This document shows positions 39,449 to 61,776 of a stretch of DNA of 64,000 nt, piece after piece (position 1 is the first letter of the stretch; each line of letters begins with the position of its first letter). The notes beneath the pieces are model-generated. The model made no database searches. It was not told the DNA's origin and saw only the letters and a list, made by a program, of their open reading frames with translations. This DNA is from an uncultured Gammaproteobacteria bacterium (GTDB taxonomy: Bacteria > Patescibacteriota > Patescibacteriia > Veblenbacterales > UBA10138), in contig CAYGDX010000002.1 of assembly GCA_964348825.1 (NCBI GenBank), positions 80,609-144,608 of the forward strand. The letters run 5' to 3'. The position numbers and the translations under genes were made by a program.

Positions 39449-40553
39449 TTACTTACCAGCCACTTGCCTCAACCTCGCCTCAATAAACTCTATCAACTTA
39501 CCCTCAAGCACACTGTCGGGATCATTTGATTCAAATCCCGTGCGATGATCTTTCACCAACTTATATGGATGTAAAACATACGAACGCGCTTGATTGCCCC
39601 ACTCAGCACTTTTAAATTCACCACGCAACTTTTTCTTATCACTTTGTAATTTATCTTCAGCCAATTGCCAAAGTTTAGCGCGTAGATATTTCATAGCTTG
39701 TTCTTTATTTTGCATTTGTGAACGCTCATTTTGACATTGTACTGTGATACCAGTAGGAATGTGCACAATGCGCACGGCAGAATAAGTTGTGTTCACCGAC
39801 TGCCCGCCATGCCCACCCGACATAAAAGTATCAACCCGTAAATCTTTAGGATCAATTTCCACTGCCGCTGTATCAGGTAATTCTGGTAAAACTTCTACCA
39901 GAACAAATGAAGTATGACGCATTTTTTCGGCATCAAATGGAGAAATGCGCACCAACCGATGCACACCCGCTTCGCATTTTAAATATCCATAAGCCAGTCG
40001 CCCTGAAATTTTCAGTAAACAACTTTTTATACCAGCTTCCTGCCCACGAGATTCATCTAAAATCTCTACGTGCCACTTCTGCTCGTCACAAAAACGTAAA
40101 TACATTCGCCGCAGCATTTCAGCCCAATCTTGCGCGTCGGTACCACCAGCCCCAGCATGAATGGAAAGCAAAGCACTGACTTCGTCATATTCCCCGCCTA
40201 GAAGTTTTTTAAATTCCAACACTTCTAAACGCTTAAGTAAATCGGTATAAACTTTTTCAATTTCCTCGCGCAAAGAAACTAAACCATCGGTTTGGTCAGC
40301 ACTAGCCAATTCTAAAACTTCGGCCACCTCTTTAGTGAGTGACTCAAAAGATATTAAATCTTTTTGCAACGAATCGTGGGTACTAGAAATTTCCCGCGCC
40401 TGATTTTGATCCGCCCAAAAATCAGAAGCCGACATAGCTATTTCCAGCGCCGCAATTTTAGCTTTAAGACCGTTTGGGTCAAAGCCACCTCCCCGCCTCA
40501 AGGACACGGGATTCAAGCGCCTTAAGGTTACGAACTAAATCTGCTTCATGCAT
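39449..40553 (-). CDS. prfB: peptide chain release factor 2, with programmed +1 ribosomal frameshift
   Basis: GGQ and SPF motifs. ORF0 (MHEADLVRNLKALESRVLEAGRWL) ends at CUU UGA C at 40478-40484, preceded by an SD-like GGGAGGUGG. The +1 frame continues as LDPNGLKAKIAALE... Confidence 0.9.
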
Positions 40554-40779: not shown

Positions 40780-41484
40780 TTAGTCGTCACTTGAACTACC
40801 TTTATTCCCCATAATCCTGAGTAGAGTGATAAACAAGTTTATCACATCTAAGTAGATAGCAAGCGCACAATCAACCGCATTATCCATTGTGTGCGGTAAT
40901 CGTACTGCACGATTCCAATCATATATAATGTACAGTGAAAATAATATAGCCGCACCGTACTCAATGTAAGGCATGTACCATATTGATTCACTAACACCAA
41001 TCGCGGCCATAACAGCTTGCCCAAAACGAACAAACACTAAAGCCAGCAACGCTCCAAACAAATATATACCCCAACTTTCGAGGGATTTTGGTACCATTAT
41101 ACCTATGATTGACGTAACAAGTGTTACGCCCATTGTGGCCATCAAAGCAGTGATTACGACACCGGTTTGGTGCATAGCCACAGTTGGACCGGTAATAATT
41201 CCTAGACCGACCACTACCATGGTGTATCCGAGAAGTGATACAAACCAATTATTACTTTTCAATGTTATGAATATACCAATAATTGGAATGCCCAAACCAA
41301 TAATTAATACTGGCCAAATACTTTCCGGATGCCATGACATAGTAAACCATGCCAATATACCGGAAACCACTAAACCGTAAACTGTGAAGCCACACACCGC
41401 CGCTACATATACTCCAAGTGACATGGTGTTTTGACCGCCCTTGTCAGCGCGATCCCAAACCGAACTTCCTAAACTACTACCCAT
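40780..41484 (-). CDS. Bax inhibitor-1/YccA family membrane protein
   Basis: 7-TM protein with the C-terminal signature ...AIYLDVINLFITLLRIMG. Confidence 0.7.
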   Translation of the reverse strand: MGSSLGSSVWDRADKGGQNTMSLGVYVAAVCGFTVYGLVVSGILAWFTMSWHPESIWPVLIIGLGIPIIGIFITLKSNNWFVSLLGYTMVVVGLGIITGPTVAMHQTGVVITALMATMGVTLVTSIIGIMVPKSLESWGIYLFGALLALVFVRFGQAVMAAIGVSESIWYMPYIEYGAAILFSLYIIYDWNRAVRLPHTMDNAVDCALAIYLDVINLFITLLRIMGNKGSSSDD

Positions 41485-41542
41485 TGTATTTCCTCATTAT
41501 ATTATTTTTTTAATTTGTGAATTGTGTTTGATTATTTAAAAT

Positions 41543-41917
41543 TTAATGACTTTTTCTTTTTCCAAACTTAAAACCACCAAGCATAAACCGCAAAGCGACT
41601 AATAATATTCCGATTGATAGAAGTGGTGCTATTGCACTTTGATCTACGAATAATGCGTAAGCAACTATTCCTAAACCCAGAGTAATTAGAATATTTTTTG
41701 GTTTTTTTATAAATGCTTTTAAAGCTTCCCAAATTTCGGGAAGTAAAAAACCAATTACTGAAACGCCAACTACCCATTCCCATCCGACTACAAAACCTGT
41801 TAGTAAACTTAACGGCCAAGGAATAAGAAGTAACCATTTGCGCGGTCGGGCTGGAATTTTGTTATACATTCGGCATAAGAATGCCGTGCCAAGTGGCAAC
41901 AACAACAATATCTCCAT
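41543..41917 (-). CDS. hypothetical membrane protein
   Basis: 124-aa ORF with 3-4 TM helices. Confidence 0.4.
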   Translation of the reverse strand: MEILLLLPLGTAFLCRMYNKIPARPRKWLLLIPWPLSLLTGFVVGWEWVVGVSVIGFLLPEIWEALKAFIKKPKNILITLGLGIVAYALFVDQSAIAPLLSIGILLVALRFMLGGFKFGKRKSH

Positions 41918-42126
41918 TATTTTCTCTTTCTATATGTGTGATTCAAATTGTTAAAGAACATAATATAATAGCGTATTTTGATAGCTTTGTCAATGGTTAT
42001 GTAACAAAAATACATCAAATTTGGCTAACATTTGAGTAAATAAACTACAAAATTGATATTTTTGAGAGATTGCTTCGCTTCGCCCTTTTGGGCTTCGCTC
42101 GCAATGACATTTTGCTCGCCTACTCA

Positions 42127-42822
42127 CTACTTGCTACTAGCTATTTGCTCCGTGCTAACTTCAGTGGAAGTTTTAAGCCACCGCACTCCCAAATAAGCCA
42201 GTGGAGTTTCAATAATTGAAAAAAATATTTTAAGTAACCAGTACGGCAAAATCAGCGCCACCATTTTACTTAAATCATAAGCGGGTGTGACTAAATAAAA
42301 TGCCACAAAAATAAATACCGTGGTATCAACCAGCTGACTAATAAAATTAGATAAATTGGTGCGTAGCCAAAATAATTTATTAGCCCACATCTGCCGCATT
42401 TTATTAAACACTAAAACATCGAGAAATTCACTTAAAGCAAAAGCGGTTAAACTAGCTAAAATAATCCGCAGTGAATTGCCAAACACACTTTGATAGGCCT
42501 CATTGTTATGATAAAAACTAGCCGATGGTAAAATTCTCGCCACATATACCATTACAAATAAAAAAATTAAAACATAAAGTCCACTGCGCACAAAATTACG
42601 CGCCCGTTCCTTACCTACTACTTCACTCACTACATCATTTATCACAAAAGTTATTGGGAGGGCCAAAATCCCCACTGAAGTTGCTACACCAAAAATAGTA
42701 ATTAATTTACTACCCAATAACTCAGCGGCCACTACCGCCGCAATATATATGGCCAGTAAATAATCCAAACGCTGATCAAGTTTTAACATAAGATTTTTTG
42801 TAATTAAGAAGTAAGGTACCAC
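42127..42822 (-). CDS. VUT-family transporter (YhhQ / queuosine-precursor transporter family, DUF165)
   Basis: Matches YhhQ across the conserved C-half (ASLTAFALSEFLDVLVFNKMRQ...LRTNLSNFISQLVDTTVFIFVAF). The start probably lies at a downstream Met, as the track's start overlaps the upstream gene. Confidence 0.7.
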   Translation of the reverse strand: MVPYFLITKNLMLKLDQRLDYLLAIYIAAVVAAELLGSKLITIFGVATSVGILALPITFVINDVVSEVVGKERARNFVRSGLYVLIFLFVMVYVARILPSASFYHNNEAYQSVFGNSLRIILASLTAFALSEFLDVLVFNKMRQMWANKLFWLRTNLSNFISQLVDTTVFIFVAFYLVTPAYDLSKMVALILPYWLLKIFFSIIETPLAYLGVRWLKTSTEVSTEQIASSK

Positions 42823-43303
42823 GCTTATTTAAACGCTTCACACTCAAGAGCACAAAACTACGCGTGGGTATGAGTTTATTAAACAATGGTAAACCATTAC
42901 CAAAAATCAATGGTTCAATGGTTAATTGAATTTCATCGATTTTATTTTTTAGTAAGAACCAATTATAAACTTCGGTGCCACCTAGCACGGCTATTTTAAA
43001 ATATTTATATTTTTTTAACACGCTAAATAAATTAACCTTAGCTGGATTAACATAAATCACATTGCCGCGCTCTACTAAAATATCGTACCGGCGCGTAAAC
43101 ACAATACAATTTCTATTTACCAGTCGATCCTTAACTAACTTAAAAGTATTAGCACCAATAATTATAACATCGCACTTATCCATTTCAGCGTGCAAATAAT
43201 CTTTGTCTTCCGGGCTTCCCCAATCGCTAATATGATTTTTACGCTTAGCAATTTTACCATCAATCGTAACGACCGCGAGAAGAGTAAAATATAGTTGTTT
43301 CAT
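42776..43303 (-). CDS. dihydrofolate-reductase-family protein (RibD C-terminal domain-like reductase)
   Basis: TIDGKIA...SDWGSPEDKDYLH...CDVIIIGANTF...AVLGGTEVYNWFL...IEPLIFGNGLPLF...LLNYK fits RibD_C/DHFR-like proteins. Confidence 0.65.
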   Translation of the reverse strand: MKQLYFTLLAVVTIDGKIAKRKNHISDWGSPEDKDYLHAEMDKCDVIIIGANTFKLVKDRLVNRNCIVFTRRYDILVERGNVIYVNPAKVNLFSVLKKYKYFKIAVLGGTEVYNWFLLKNKIDEIQLTIEPLIFGNGLPLFNKLIPTRSFVLLSVKRLNKRGTLLLNYKKSYVKT

Positions 43304-44022
43304 AATTTTTTTTCAAAAACTTTAAGAAGTGATGCATAAATATCATCACCATCTGGAATTATTAAATCGGCCGCGAAATTTTCATCACTAAAAACAATAC
43401 TAGGCACATTTTTTATAATGGCGAGTGGTGTTTGCTCATTGCCCTCACCCATTACAAGAACTGCGGCGGCGGCTAAAGCATCGGGTATATTTACGGTGGT
43501 CATTTTTAATTTCCGTCCAAAAATATCAGGGCTACCCCGATAATCATAGAGTGGTTTAAAACCAGAAAATGCAATTGATATGCCAATCACACCCCAGCGC
43601 ATTGGTATAGTATGACTATCAGAAATTATAACGCCTAAATTTTTCAAGTGATCTCGCTTTTTTAAATACTGACCAATCTCGCGGGCCGCCGCTGTTGGAT
43701 TATTGGGCCACAAAATATAATAACCATCGGCATTGCTTTCATCAATACCAGCATTTGGTATTAGAGTATTTAATTTTATGGTAATAGCTACACCCGCTGT
43801 ATTACAACTGGGTGGTAAATATTTTTCGGCTTCACTTTTAACTAAATCTTCTTTCACTGCTTCACTTATTAAAACACAACGACCTTGGTGAATACTAACA
43901 ACTTTTGAAGTAACTACTACAATATCACCCTCGGCAAGTTCCGGTAAAGCTGAATCTAAAACTTCATATAAATTATCTTGAGGTGGTTTTAAAACACGAG
44001 TTTTAATAGGATAAATATTCAT
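43300..44022 (-). CDS. CofE-like gamma-glutamyl ligase (F420-0:glutamyl ligase family; FolC2-type)
   Basis: GDIVVVTSKVVSIHQGRCV and IISDSHTIPMRWGVIGISIAFSGFKPLYDYRG match CofE-family motifs. A 4-nt overlap with the downstream DHFR-like gene suggests an operon. Confidence 0.6.
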   Translation of the reverse strand: MNIYPIKTRVLKPPQDNLYEVLDSALPELAEGDIVVVTSKVVSIHQGRCVLISEAVKEDLVKSEAEKYLPPSCNTAGVAITIKLNTLIPNAGIDESNADGYYILWPNNPTAAAREIGQYLKKRDHLKNLGVIISDSHTIPMRWGVIGISIAFSGFKPLYDYRGSPDIFGRKLKMTTVNIPDALAAAAVLVMGEGNEQTPLAIIKNVPSIVFSDENFAADLIIPDGDDIYASLLKVFEKKL

Positions 44023-44267
44023 AAAATAAAACTAGCCAATTAAAGTCGGCTAGTTTTTAAAATTGAAAATAAAAAATAGCCGTTAATCACAAACGGCAGA
44101 ACCCGTACTTAAAACTACTAAGAAATATAATTTACCATTAACGTGTATCATGGCTTTATATTAGTTGGTTAAGTCAATATCGTCAATAGTTGACAAAATC
44201 ACCCCTCAAGCGTAAGTTAATGACGTAATAAATAAAATAAATAATTCGCAAAATCGTAACTTAATAA

Positions 44268-45548
<1,281 letters not shown>

Positions 45549-60726: not shown

Positions 60727-61776
60727 TCACTTTATAAAGCTCGCTTCCCGCGCTACTTGCATCGCTTGTTTAATTTCATCTAAACTTAGTACATTATTTT
60801 CAAGTAATAACTCTATTTCTTTTTTCATATTGGTACGCAATAAAAATGGACCGTCGGTATTTATTGTATAGCGTACGCCAAACTTCTTAAATTTAGCTAA
60901 AATTTCTCGCAAGTGATCCCAACTATTCACGGCATTGGTTTGAATATTGGAAGATGGGCAAATTTCAAGCACTGTACCAGCGGCTGCTAACTCTGTCATC
61001 AGACCTTCATCTTTCGCGGCTTGCACGCCATGGCCGATTCGCTCTGGATTAATATCTCGCAACACCTGCCTTAAACTTTCCGGCCCTGTGGCATCGGTTT
61101 CGCCAGTATGTACTGTAATGCCAAGCCCCCGCTCGCGCGCTTCGGCAAATAATTTTACGTAACGACCAAAATCTTTATCATTTTCAAAAGTATGCTTTTC
61201 TGGCCCCGCAATATCTATACCTACTACCCCCCATTTAAAATAATGCATGGCTTTGCGCACAATAATTTCATTAAGCTCAAAAGGAAATTCTCGCGCCAAA
61301 CAAAAAATAAGTCCAGCTTTCACACTATAATCTAAAATCGCCTTATCCATACCATGCACCGCCGCCTGTATAATATGATCCAAATCCATTTCGCCACCCT
61401 TATTACGCTTCATTGGGTTAAACCTAAGTTCAATTTTTGAAACATTAGACGAACGATATTCTTTGGAGATAATTTCGTAAATACAACGTTCAATCGCTTC
61501 GGGTGATGATTGAATTTTTTCCGTCCACTGGTGCATAATTTCCACATAGTCATTTAAATTTTTTACATTTTCTGAACTAGCAGTAATTAATTTCCAAAAA
61601 TCCCAATAAGTTTTGGCCGGCAATTTCATACCATGTTTATGCGCAATTTCCCACATAATATGCGGCGCCACCGCACCACCGACGTGAATATGTAAATCAA
61701 CTAATTCTTCCTGTAAACGATTTTTAAAATGAATCATACTAAGTAAGAGTATAAAATATAAACAAACAAGAGCCAA
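60727..61776 (-). CDS. add: adenosine deaminase family protein
   Basis: HIHVGG (HxH), HTGE, and TINTDGP (SLNTDDP-like) metal/catalytic motifs. True start probably at the internal Met. Confidence 0.8.
   Translation of the reverse strand: MALVCLYFILLLSMIHFKNRLQEELVDLHIHVGGAVAPHIMWEIAHKHGMKLPAKTYWDFWKLITASSENVKNLNDYVEIMHQWTEKIQSSPEAIERCIYEIISKEYRSSNVSKIELRFNPMKRNKGGEMDLDHIIQAAVHGMDKAILDYSVKAGLIFCLAREFPFELNEIIVRKAMHYFKWGVVGIDIAGPEKHTFENDKDFGRYVKLFAEARERGLGITVHTGETDATGPESLRQVLRDINPERIGHGVQAAKDEGLMTELAAAGTVLEICPSSNIQTNAVNSWDHLREILAKFKKFGVRYTINTDGPFLLRTNMKKEIELLLENNVLSLDEIKQAMQVAREASFIK

What the first reader, a model, noticed from the sequence alone, without database searches (positions are those of the whole stretch)
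42127..44022. CofE/FolC2-like glutamyl ligase - DHFR-family reductase - YhhQ/VUT transporter operon: minimal folate (or 7-deazapurine) salvage module
Seen: three minus-strand genes with 4-nt and short overlaps (43300-44022, 42776-43303, 42127-42822). Motifs seen: a CofE-family ligase signature, a RibD-C/DHFR-family reductase, and a clear YhhQ-family (VUT) transporter. Established knowledge: in Chlamydia a CofE-like protein (FolC2) replaces folylpolyglutamate synthase; YhhQ-type VUT transporters import queuosine precursors (preQ0/preQ1) and other vitamins. Inference: transporter plus reductase plus gamma-glutamyl ligase is exactly what is needed to import a folate, reduce it to THF and polyglutamylate it for retention. 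If so, the YhhQ homolog here would be a folate transporter, an unreported specificity for this family. The alternative is a 7-deazapurine/pterin salvage route.
Basis: partly seen in the sequence, partly recalled or inferred. Interest (0 to 1): 0.72.

Follow-up and report, generated by a model that had tools for sequence, protein, structure and literature searches.

The report
Folate salvage operon with candidate folate transporter
A tiny-genome (Patescibacteria) bacterium carries a three-gene operon for reducing and glutamylating folate, plus a membrane protein annotated as a queuosine-precursor transporter that gene neighbourhoods in about 160 other genomes and metagenome contigs point to being an unrecognised folate importer.

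Summary
Three co-directional, overlapping minus-strand genes encode a CofE-family gamma-glutamyl ligase of the FolC2 type (43300-44022), a dihydrofolate reductase (42776-43303) and a PF02592/VUT membrane protein (42127-42789; ATG start preferred over the GTG at 42822).

The reductase is a credible DHFR. Its best solved relative is Thermotoga maritima DHFR (E=1.5e-20), and the E. coli FolA W22/D27/G43/T46/G95-G96/T113 equivalents are invariant.

The key result concerns the VUT. In 80 metagenome loci holding relatives of it (41-77% identity), 49 of 63 assessable loci have a folate gene within 3 kb. These genes are the FolC2-like ligase, canonical FolC, three different DHFR forms, SHMT and ThyA. 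One contig reads ThyA-VUT-FolA-SHMT. No locus has TGT.

So both partner roles, FPGS and DHFR, are filled by interchangeable non-orthologous genes while the VUT stays. E. coli YhhQ is only 28% identical.

The folate-salvage reading is supported by comparative genomics. Transport itself is untested. I found no paper in the held library linking this family to folate.

I could not test genome-wide absence of folP/folK, folC or tgt.

Verdict: new variant of a known kind, and a directly testable candidate for a missing bacterial folate carrier.

The parts
43300..44022 (-). FolC2-like CofE-family gamma-glutamyl ligase (240 aa); proposed folylpolyglutamate synthase
   Evidence: PF01996 E=2e-41. TIGR04132 scores 258.8 bits (cutoff 350), against CofE TIGR01916 at 135.9. 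Best PDB relative is A. fulgidus CofE 2G9I/7ULD, E=8e-22. 5971 homologues at E<=1e-10, the best-listed ones mostly from Patescibacteria, some named 'putative folate metabolism gamma-glutamate ligase' or 'dihydrofolate synthase / folylpolyglutamate synthase' by their sources.
42776..43303 (-). Short dihydrofolate reductase of the Thermotoga maritima type (175 aa)
   Evidence: RibD_C 61.8 bits and DHFR_1 29.8 bits, both above GA. T. maritima DHFR 1CZ3/1D1G at E=1.5e-20 over residues 11-169. W28, D33, G50, T53, G108-G109 and T128 are invariant and align with E. coli FolA W22, D27, G43, T46, G95-G96 and T113. The start overlaps the ligase stop by ATGA.
42127..42789 (-). PF02592 (Vut_1 / YhhQ-QPTR family) membrane protein, 220 aa from the ATG at 42789 (the ORF extends to a GTG at 42822); proposed folate importer
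44023..44190 (-). 5' leader and promoter region of the operon, divergent from purA: promoter-like TTGACG-17-TAATAT (44186-44158) and two hairpins, each followed by a T-run (44097-44079; 44057-44028, the second ending 5 nt before the ATG)
   Evidence: The leader folds at -30.5 kcal/mol, z=-3.0 against shuffles. No Rfam family matches, even at E<=5. Function not established.
41965..41993 (-). Promoter-like site (11 of 12 matches) for the next gene (41917): marks the 3' boundary of the three-gene unit

Best explanation
The locus is a three-gene folate salvage operon of a Patescibacteria (CPR) bacterium. The VUT protein is a solitary membrane protein with the fold of an ECF-transporter S component. 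It takes up a monoglutamyl folate from the surroundings or the host. The DHFR reduces folate or dihydrofolate to tetrahydrofolate with NADPH, and also recycles any DHF made by thymidylate synthase. The CofE-family FolC2-like ligase adds gamma-linked glutamates, which traps the cofactor in the cell and makes it a good substrate for folate enzymes.

Shown: the gene structure, the family memberships, the conserved DHFR catalytic residues, the S-component-like predicted fold, and the recurrent linkage of this VUT clade to folate genes.

Inferred: the transported substrate, its redox form and its energy coupling; the FPGS activity of the ligase (by analogy with Chlamydia CT611); and that the organism cannot make folate de novo.
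For: (a) Gene structure. The ORFs overlap and point the same way, with their own promoter-like site and the next gene's promoter downstream.

(b) Ligase. TIGR04132 is the best model, at about twice the CofE score. CT611/FolC2 complements E. coli folC (PMC1971073).

(c) DHFR. The best solved relative is T. maritima DHFR, and the catalytic and NADPH-binding residues are invariant across the family and E. coli FolA.

(d) VUT-anchored survey of 80 metagenome loci. 63 are assessable, and 49 have at least one folate gene within 3 kb: FolC2-like 18, DHFR-like 27, canonical FolC 12 (TIGR01499, 295 bits), SHMT 7 (559 bits), ThyA 2 (232 bits). TGT: 0.

(e) The reductase partner occurs in three forms: the short T. 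maritima type, canonical FolA (PF00186, 126-135 bits) and a 240-aa RibD_C type. The ligase partner occurs in two non-homologous forms, FolC2-like and FolC. L142 reads ThyA-VUT-FolA-SHMT.

(f) At least ten different gene orders occur, spread over several VUT clades (tree). This argues against inherited synteny.

(g) FolC2-anchored survey of 80 species genomes. VUT is adjacent in 12-13. In another 12 an unrelated membrane protein occupies the same position, as expected for alternative transporters.

(i) The clade includes Methanosarcina proteins. M. barkeri needs folic acid or pABA, according to the title of Buchenau & Thauer 2004, seen as a reference in PMC3087415.
Against: There is no transport, binding or enzyme assay. 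The VUT passes NCBIfam's equivalog cutoff for 'queuosine precursor transporter' (TIGR00697), and the only characterised members of PF02592 (E. coli, C. trachomatis, B. henselae) carry preQ0/preQ1/queuine. The ligase scores below the TIGR04132 cutoff (258.8 < 350). TGT lies directly upstream of the FolC2-like gene in 3-4 CPR species, an unexplained folate/queuosine adjacency. About a fifth of assessable VUT loci show no folate gene nearby, and the Methanosarcina context is uninformative. No THF riboswitch was found. Whether this genome lacks folP/folK or has tgt is unknown.
Confidence: 0.7

Rival explanations
1. The VUT is what it is annotated as: a queuosine-precursor (preQ0/preQ1/queuine) importer. 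It sits beside the folate genes only because small genomes pack salvage genes together or co-regulate them. The folate enzymes get their substrate through another carrier.
For: TIGR00697 equivalog hit above cutoff. All experimentally characterised PF02592 members carry Q precursors. Some CPR genomes do have TGT, and in 3-4 species it lies next to the FolC2-like gene.
Against: There was no TGT hit within 6 kb of any of 80 VUT loci. None of the recurrent neighbour families is Q-related. Linkage to five kinds of folate gene persists through non-orthologous replacement of both enzyme partners and through many gene orders. There is no preQ1 riboswitch. Identity to E. coli YhhQ is 28%, and the protein is far below the E. 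coli-type model cutoff.
Confidence: 0.12
2. The module is folate-related, but the VUT carries something other than an intact folate: for example a pterin, p-aminobenzoyl-glutamate, pteroate/dihydropteroate or a folate breakdown product. Alternatively it exports folate.
For: Gene neighbourhood identifies the pathway, not the exact ligand. FolC-type enzymes can also add the first glutamate to dihydropteroate. Characterised members of the family accept small bicyclic guanine-like bases (preQ0, preQ1, queuine) that are pterin-sized.
Against: No folP, folK or folB-like genes recur among the neighbours, although these would be needed to use pterins or pABA-Glu. The constant partners are the two enzymes needed after uptake of an intact monoglutamyl folate: DHFR and FPGS.
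Confidence: 0.13
3. The cluster serves a deazaflavin/flavin-type cofactor: a true CofE (F420-0:glutamate ligase) with a RibD-type pyrimidine reductase and a transporter for a flavin or deazaflavin precursor.
For: PF01996 and RibD_C are the families of CofE and of the riboflavin pathway reductase. Many database entries call the ligase 'coenzyme F420-0:L-glutamate ligase'.
Against: The CofE models score about half the FolC2 model and are below their cutoffs. The reductase matches a characterised DHFR and keeps the DHFR catalytic Asp/Trp/Thr. The VUT also pairs with canonical FolC, FolA, ThyA and SHMT. No other cof or rib genes were seen in any neighbourhood.
Confidence: 0.03

Closest known systems
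Chlamydia folC2-folA cluster (CT611 FolC2, a CofE homologue with FolC function; de Crecy-Lagard et al. 2007, PMC1971073)
   Same: A CofE-family ligase sits next to a DHFR in an organism expected to lack F420. TIGR04132 is the best-matching model.
   Different: The window protein scores below the TIGR04132 cutoff, so it belongs to a CPR sister group. In Chlamydia the cluster holds de novo genes (folKP, folX/B), whereas here it holds a transporter and no de novo genes. The DHFR is the short T. maritima type.
YhhQ / QPTR queuosine-precursor transporters (COG1738, PF02592; Zallot et al. 2017, PMC5372724; Yuan et al. 2019)
   Same: Same Pfam family, similar size and predicted topology. Solitary, with no ECF module genes nearby.
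   Different: 28% identity to E. coli YhhQ. No Q genes or preQ1 riboswitch nearby. Instead there is consistent linkage to DHFR, FPGS, SHMT and ThyA. The predicted substrate is folate rather than 7-deazaguanines.
FolT, the folate-specific S component of ECF transporters (PDB 4Z7F, 5D0Y; Eudes et al. 2008)
   Different: No detectable sequence relationship (no PF12822 hit). No EcfA/EcfT genes were seen nearby, so the energy coupling probably differs.
Thermotoga maritima dihydrofolate reductase (PDB 1CZ3/1D1G)
   Same: Best solved relative of the 175-aa reductase, aligned end to end, with a shared C-terminal 'EP.IFG.G...LN..GT.LL.Y' region that E. coli FolA lacks.
   Different: Moderate similarity only (76.8 bits). 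Activity and oligomeric state of the CPR enzyme are untested.

Membership tests
FolC2 / TIGR04132 (putative folate metabolism gamma-glutamate ligase) | CofE-family (PF01996) domain over the whole protein | tested here: met
   PF01996 E=2e-41, residues 6-205; A. fulgidus CofE E=8e-22.
FolC2 / TIGR04132 (putative folate metabolism gamma-glutamate ligase) | Score at or above the curated model cutoff (350 bits) | tested here: not met
   258.8 bits. It is still the best model by about 120 bits over CofE. Other CPR homologues are named with this model by NCBI.
FolC2 / TIGR04132 (putative folate metabolism gamma-glutamate ligase) | Physical clustering with folate genes | tested here: met
   DHFR overlaps it here. 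DHFR-like is adjacent in 21-24 of 80 species loci, and SHMT/ThyA in a few.
FolC2 / TIGR04132 (putative folate metabolism gamma-glutamate ligase) | Organism lacks F420 biosynthesis and canonical folC; protein has FPGS/DHFS activity | not testable with these tools
   Only about 85 kb of the genome was seen. No enzyme assay.
Dihydrofolate reductase (DHFR superfamily) | Pfam DHFR_1 at or above the gathering score | tested here: met
   29.8 bits against 25. RibD_C scores higher at 61.8 bits.
Dihydrofolate reductase (DHFR superfamily) | Catalytic and NADPH-binding residues (E. coli W22, D27, G43, T46, G95-G96, T113) | tested here: met
   All invariant in alignment A4 of 14 family members, the window protein and E. 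coli FolA.
Dihydrofolate reductase (DHFR superfamily) | Closest characterised relative is a DHFR rather than a RibD pyrimidine reductase | tested here: met
   T. maritima DHFR at E=1.5e-20, against the best riboflavin-type entries at 3e-6 to 4e-5.
Dihydrofolate reductase (DHFR superfamily) | NADPH-dependent reduction of DHF/folate | not testable with these tools
   Needs an enzyme assay or folA complementation.
QPTR / YhhQ queuosine-precursor transporter | PF02592 domain; TIGR00697 at or above cutoff | tested here: met
   Vut_1 150.4 bits; TIGR00697 145.6 bits against 50.95.
QPTR / YhhQ queuosine-precursor transporter | Membership of the E. coli-type equivalog (NF008406, cutoff 252) | tested here: not met
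   73.5 bits; 28% identity to YhhQ; long branch in the tree.
QPTR / YhhQ queuosine-precursor transporter | Association with Q genes (tgt, que genes) or a preQ1 riboswitch, the basis of the original assignment | tested here: not met
   No Rfam hit. 0 of 80 VUT loci have TGT within 6 kb, and the recurrent neighbours are folate genes.
QPTR / YhhQ queuosine-precursor transporter | Transport of preQ0/preQ1/queuine | not testable with these tools
   Needs the queD yhhQ complementation assay of PMC5372724.
ECF-type S component (e.g. FolT) | S-component fold | tested here: met
ECF-type S component (e.g. FolT) | Sequence membership (PF12822) and partnership with an EcfA/A'/T module | tested here: not met
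   No PF12822 hit. No ECF module genes in the window plus flanks or among the recurrent neighbours. The rest of the genome was not seen.

The most novel reading that the evidence does not exclude
A large clade of PF02592 proteins is a previously unrecognised family of solitary folate transporters. It is widespread in Patescibacteria and also present in some Alphaproteobacteria, a Chloroflexota-labelled MAG and Methanosarcina. These proteins would be the 'missing' folate carrier of many folate-requiring prokaryotes. They are at present annotated as 'queuosine precursor transporter'. A second, family-less membrane protein ('MEMB') would be an alternative carrier in other CPR lineages.
Probability: 0.6. 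Interest if true: 0.75.

Novelty: new variant of a known kind. Interest (0 to 1): 0.66.

Why it matters
Folate carriers are known for only some prokaryotes (ECF-FolT, FBT family). [quoted passage not shown]

Patescibacteria are thought to live on metabolites taken from hosts, and how they obtain cofactors is central to cultivating them.

If this VUT clade imports folate, three things follow. It gives a concrete uptake-reduction-retention route for a very large part of bacterial diversity. It shows that the YhhQ/QPTR family has more than one substrate class. It also flags a systematic misannotation that propagates through an over-broad equivalog model.

The prediction can be tested directly with existing E. 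coli complementation systems.

Tried and rejected
(1) Riboswitch control. No THF or preQ1 riboswitch appeared at gathering scores over the window, or at E<=5 over 41400-44400. The hits that did appear are chance-level snoRNA or sRNA models.

(2) Solved structure of a VUT by sequence: none.

(3) MEMB as a divergent VUT: rejected (hhalign probability 0.8%). It has no PDB or Pfam family. One member has a weak PF12822 hit at E=0.053.

(4) Genome-wide search for folC, folA, folP, folK, tgt and queA. This was not possible. Only the window and 10 kb on either side of the 196-kb contig could be read. My HMMs for FolC, SHMT, ThyA, TGT, MEMB and the ATP-grasp protein found nothing else there. Absence in 85 kb says nothing about the genome.

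(5) Methanosarcina VUT neighbourhood: uninformative.

(6) Representative-library search. It gave only family size: 3695 representatives at E<=1e-3, 1385 at 1e-10 and 38 at 1e-30. It gave no context.

(7) Leader hairpins. They fold significantly better than shuffles. The closest species locus (L003) is too diverged to test conservation, so I did not pursue this.

(8) The F420/riboflavin reading of the CofE and RibD_C domains was considered and rejected on the DHFR residues and the FolC/FolA/ThyA/SHMT partners.

(9) The tree is a neighbour-joining tree on BLOSUM distances without support values. I used it only to show that the folate-linked VUTs are spread over several clades and that E. coli YhhQ is remote.
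Full report
**1. Observation**

The window (about 37% G+C) is part of a 196-kb metagenomic contig (ENA ERZ27247837 k141_595692). The ORF listing returns three minus-strand ORFs at the coordinates given: 43300-44022 (240 aa), 42776-43303 (175 aa) and 42127-42822 (231 aa from a GTG).

The first pair overlaps by ATGA. For the third gene, gene callers and alignments with homologues favour the ATG at 42789 (220 aa, MLKLDQRLD...). This overlaps the reductase stop by 14 nt.

Upstream lies a divergent purA (44280-45548). Downstream, the next gene (start 41917) has its own near-consensus promoter-like site. The three genes therefore form a compact unit.

Pfam assigns F420_ligase (E=2e-41), RibD_C (1e-16) plus DHFR_1 (6e-7), and Vut_1 (7e-44).

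**2. Organism**

The closest homologues of all three proteins come from Patescibacteria/CPR: Kerfeldbacteria, Uhrbacteria, Parcubacteria and others. The rest of the window holds ribosomal protein operons, SecY, DnaB, RF2, ComEC and similar genes. No tgt, que, fol, thyA or glyA gene lies in the window or in the 10 kb on either side. That is only about 85 kb of a genome known to exceed 353 kb, so nothing can be said about the genome as a whole.

**3. The ligase**

NCBIfam's best model is TIGR04132, 'putative folate metabolism gamma-glutamate ligase' (258.8 bits over 235 of 241 positions). CofE models reach 114-136 bits. All are below their curated cutoffs. The best solved relative is Archaeoglobus CofE (E=8e-22).

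The CofE homologue CT611 of Chlamydia clusters with folate genes and complements an E. coli folC mutant (PMC1971073). The family is very large in CPR, with 5971 hits at E<=1e-10.

I treat the protein as a FolC2-like enzyme, not as a certified member of the TIGR04132 equivalog.

**4. The reductase**

Its best solved relative is the characterised Thermotoga maritima DHFR (1CZ3/1D1G; E=1.5e-20; residues 11-169 aligned with 8-162). This is far ahead of riboflavin-pathway reductases.

I aligned the window protein, 14 family members and E. coli FolA. The invariant columns are W28, D33, G50, T53, G108-G109 and T128. These align with FolA W22, D27 (catalytic acid), G43, T46, G95-G96 and T113.

This is a DHFR of the short T. 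maritima type. The higher RibD_C score reflects the shared superfamily and the C-terminal region.

**5. The VUT protein and the decisive comparison**

By annotation rules this protein is a 'queuosine precursor transporter': TIGR00697 scores 145.6 bits against a cutoff of 50.95. But it reaches only 73.5 bits on the E. coli-type model (cutoff 252), and it is 28% identical to E. coli YhhQ.

I made two neighbourhood surveys.

*(i) FolC2-anchored survey: 80 species genomes (analysis).*
- A DHFR-like gene is adjacent in 21-24 loci.
- A VUT is adjacent in 12-13 loci, in at least four arrangements: FolC2-DHFR-VUT; VUT-FolC2(-DHFR); FolC2-VUT; and FolC2, VUT on the opposite strand, DHFR.
- An unrelated multi-pass membrane protein with no Pfam or NCBIfam family ('MEMB') occupies the same position in another 12.
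- A RimK-like ATP-grasp protein is adjacent in 6-7, and TGT in 4.

*(ii) VUT-anchored survey: 80 metagenome loci, 41-77% identical to the window VUT (analysis).*
- 63 loci have enough flank to judge, and 49 of these carry at least one folate gene within 3 kb.
- Counts are FolC2-like 18, DHFR-like 27, canonical FolC 12, SHMT 7 and ThyA 2.
- The identities were confirmed with curated models: TIGR01499 at 295 bits, SHMT at 559 bits and TIGR03284 at 232 bits.
- No TGT was found within 6 kb of any of the 80 loci.
- All neighbour families seen in three or more loci that I ran against curated models, or could name from their sequence, are either folate genes or housekeeping genes: DprA and, by my reading of the representative sequences, TopA, RelA/SpoT, a penicillin-binding protein and TyrRS. 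20 of the 34 unlabelled immediate neighbours in the loci I had scored as lacking DHFR or FolC2 were scanned, and none is Q-related.

The reductase next to the VUT comes in three forms: the short T. maritima type, canonical FolA (PF00186, 126-135 bits) and a 240-aa RibD_C type. The glutamyl ligase comes in two non-homologous forms.

Contig L142 reads ThyA-VUT-FolA-SHMT, which is the thymidylate cycle with the VUT inside it. L171 reads RibD_C, HAD, VUT, FolC2-like, followed by purF/N, purD and purL.

A neighbour-joining tree spreads the folate-linked VUTs over several clades and puts E. coli YhhQ on a long separate branch.

When both enzymatic partners are replaced by non-orthologous genes of the same function and the membrane protein stays, the simplest reading is that the membrane protein supplies their common substrate.

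**6. Mechanism**

The family is thought to work alone, and E. coli has YhhQ but no ECF module (PMC5372724).

The proposed route has three steps:
1. The VUT takes up a monoglutamyl folate.
2. DHFR reduces it to THF.
3. The FolC2-like ligase polyglutamylates it for retention and use.

The ligand's redox form, affinity and driving force are inferred, not shown.

An indirect point in favour: the clade includes Methanosarcina proteins (44-47% identity), and M. barkeri grows only with folic acid or pABA (title of Buchenau & Thauer 2004, cited in PMC3087415).

**7. Rivals**

- *The annotated function, Q-precursor uptake.* This rests on family membership and on TGT lying next to FolC2-like in a few CPR species. 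It is contradicted by the neighbourhood statistics and by the absence of a preQ1 riboswitch.
- *A different folate-related ligand (pterin, pABA-Glu, pteroate).* This cannot be excluded by sequence. It would need folP/folK, which never recur nearby.
- *An F420/flavin reading.* The DHFR residues and the FolC/FolA/ThyA/SHMT partners contradict it.

**8. Novelty**

FolC2 next to DHFR is known. Pairing the VUT with them is what is new.

Full-text searches that combined YhhQ, COG1738, PF02592, QPTR or 'queuosine precursor transporter' with folate terms found no paper proposing folate transport for this family. The papers that built similarity networks of PF02592 interpret all subgroups in terms of Q precursors. 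The library covers only open-access papers and preprints, so an earlier report elsewhere cannot be excluded.

I rate this a new variant of a known kind: a strongly supported, easily testable prediction of a new substrate class for the YhhQ/QPTR family, and a candidate for a long-missing prokaryotic folate carrier.

**9. Limits**

- All functional statements rest on homology, a predicted structure and gene context.
- The metagenome loci are of unknown taxonomy and are not phylogenetically independent samples. The variety of gene orders and partner types mitigates this but does not remove it.
- My gene calls in the loci are simple longest-ORF calls.
- HMMs for the neighbour families were built from the loci themselves, and identities were checked with curated models only for representatives.

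Noticed in passing
L069:5302-5997 (also L014, L016, L017, L019, L022, L028, L044, L071, L072, L077, L081): A membrane protein of about 230 aa with several predicted transmembrane segments and no Pfam or NCBIfam family ('MEMB', alignment A5). It lies directly beside the FolC2-like gene on the same strand in 12 of 80 Patescibacteria species, in the position the VUT occupies elsewhere. It is unrelated to the VUT by profile comparison. One member has a weak ECF S-component hit (E=0.053). It is a candidate alternative folate carrier.
   Followed up: partly
L004:4913-5920, L005:717-1739, L041:4929-5945, L048:4919-5938, L060:3764-4768: A RimK-like ATP-grasp protein (PF08443, E=1.7e-13) lies directly upstream of FolC2-like plus DHFR in several species. 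This recalls the CofF/MptN alpha-glutamate ligases that cap glutamyl tails of archaeal cofactors, and may indicate alpha-glutamylation of folylpolyglutamates.
   Followed up: no
L025:4805-5989, L026:2582-3763, L049:4773-5990, L064:4361-5512: tRNA-guanine transglycosylase (PF01702, 390 bits) lies immediately upstream of the FolC2-like gene (followed by DHFR in two loci) in three CPR species, and two genes upstream in a fourth. This is a folate/queuosine adjacency that the folate-salvage model does not explain. Two of the loci share wider synteny.
   Followed up: partly
window 44028-44097 (minus strand): Two hairpins, each followed by a T-run, lie in the roughly 130-nt leader between a promoter-like site and the ligase start codon. 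The second is a 12-bp stem ending 5 nt before the ATG. The leader folds with z=-3.0 against shuffles and matches no Rfam family. It may be an attenuator or translational operator.
   Followed up: partly
L142:2-2538: A metagenome contig reads ThyA, VUT, canonical FolA, SHMT, all on one strand: the complete thymidylate cycle with the VUT embedded in it.
   Followed up: yes
window 44280-45548 and 60727-61776; L038, L053, L055, L076 (PurB three genes upstream of FolC2-like); L171:9308-15334: Purine-nucleotide genes recur near the folate cluster: purA diverges from the operon in the window, purB is nearby in four species, and purF/N-purD-purL follow VUT-FolC2 in L171. The window also carries an adenosine deaminase-family gene (PF00962).
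   Followed up: no
window 39449-40516: The release factor 2-like ORF (PCRF plus RF-1 domains) begins at a TTG in the mechanical ORF list. I did not examine whether it uses the usual programmed +1 frameshift.
   Followed up: no
P0157 / L091:5989-7142: A VUT 58% identical to the window's lies on a 1.4-Mb contig labelled Vitreimonas (Alphaproteobacteria), and its stop overlaps the start of a DHFR-like gene. The VUT-DHFR pair is therefore not confined to reduced CPR genomes.
   Followed up: partly
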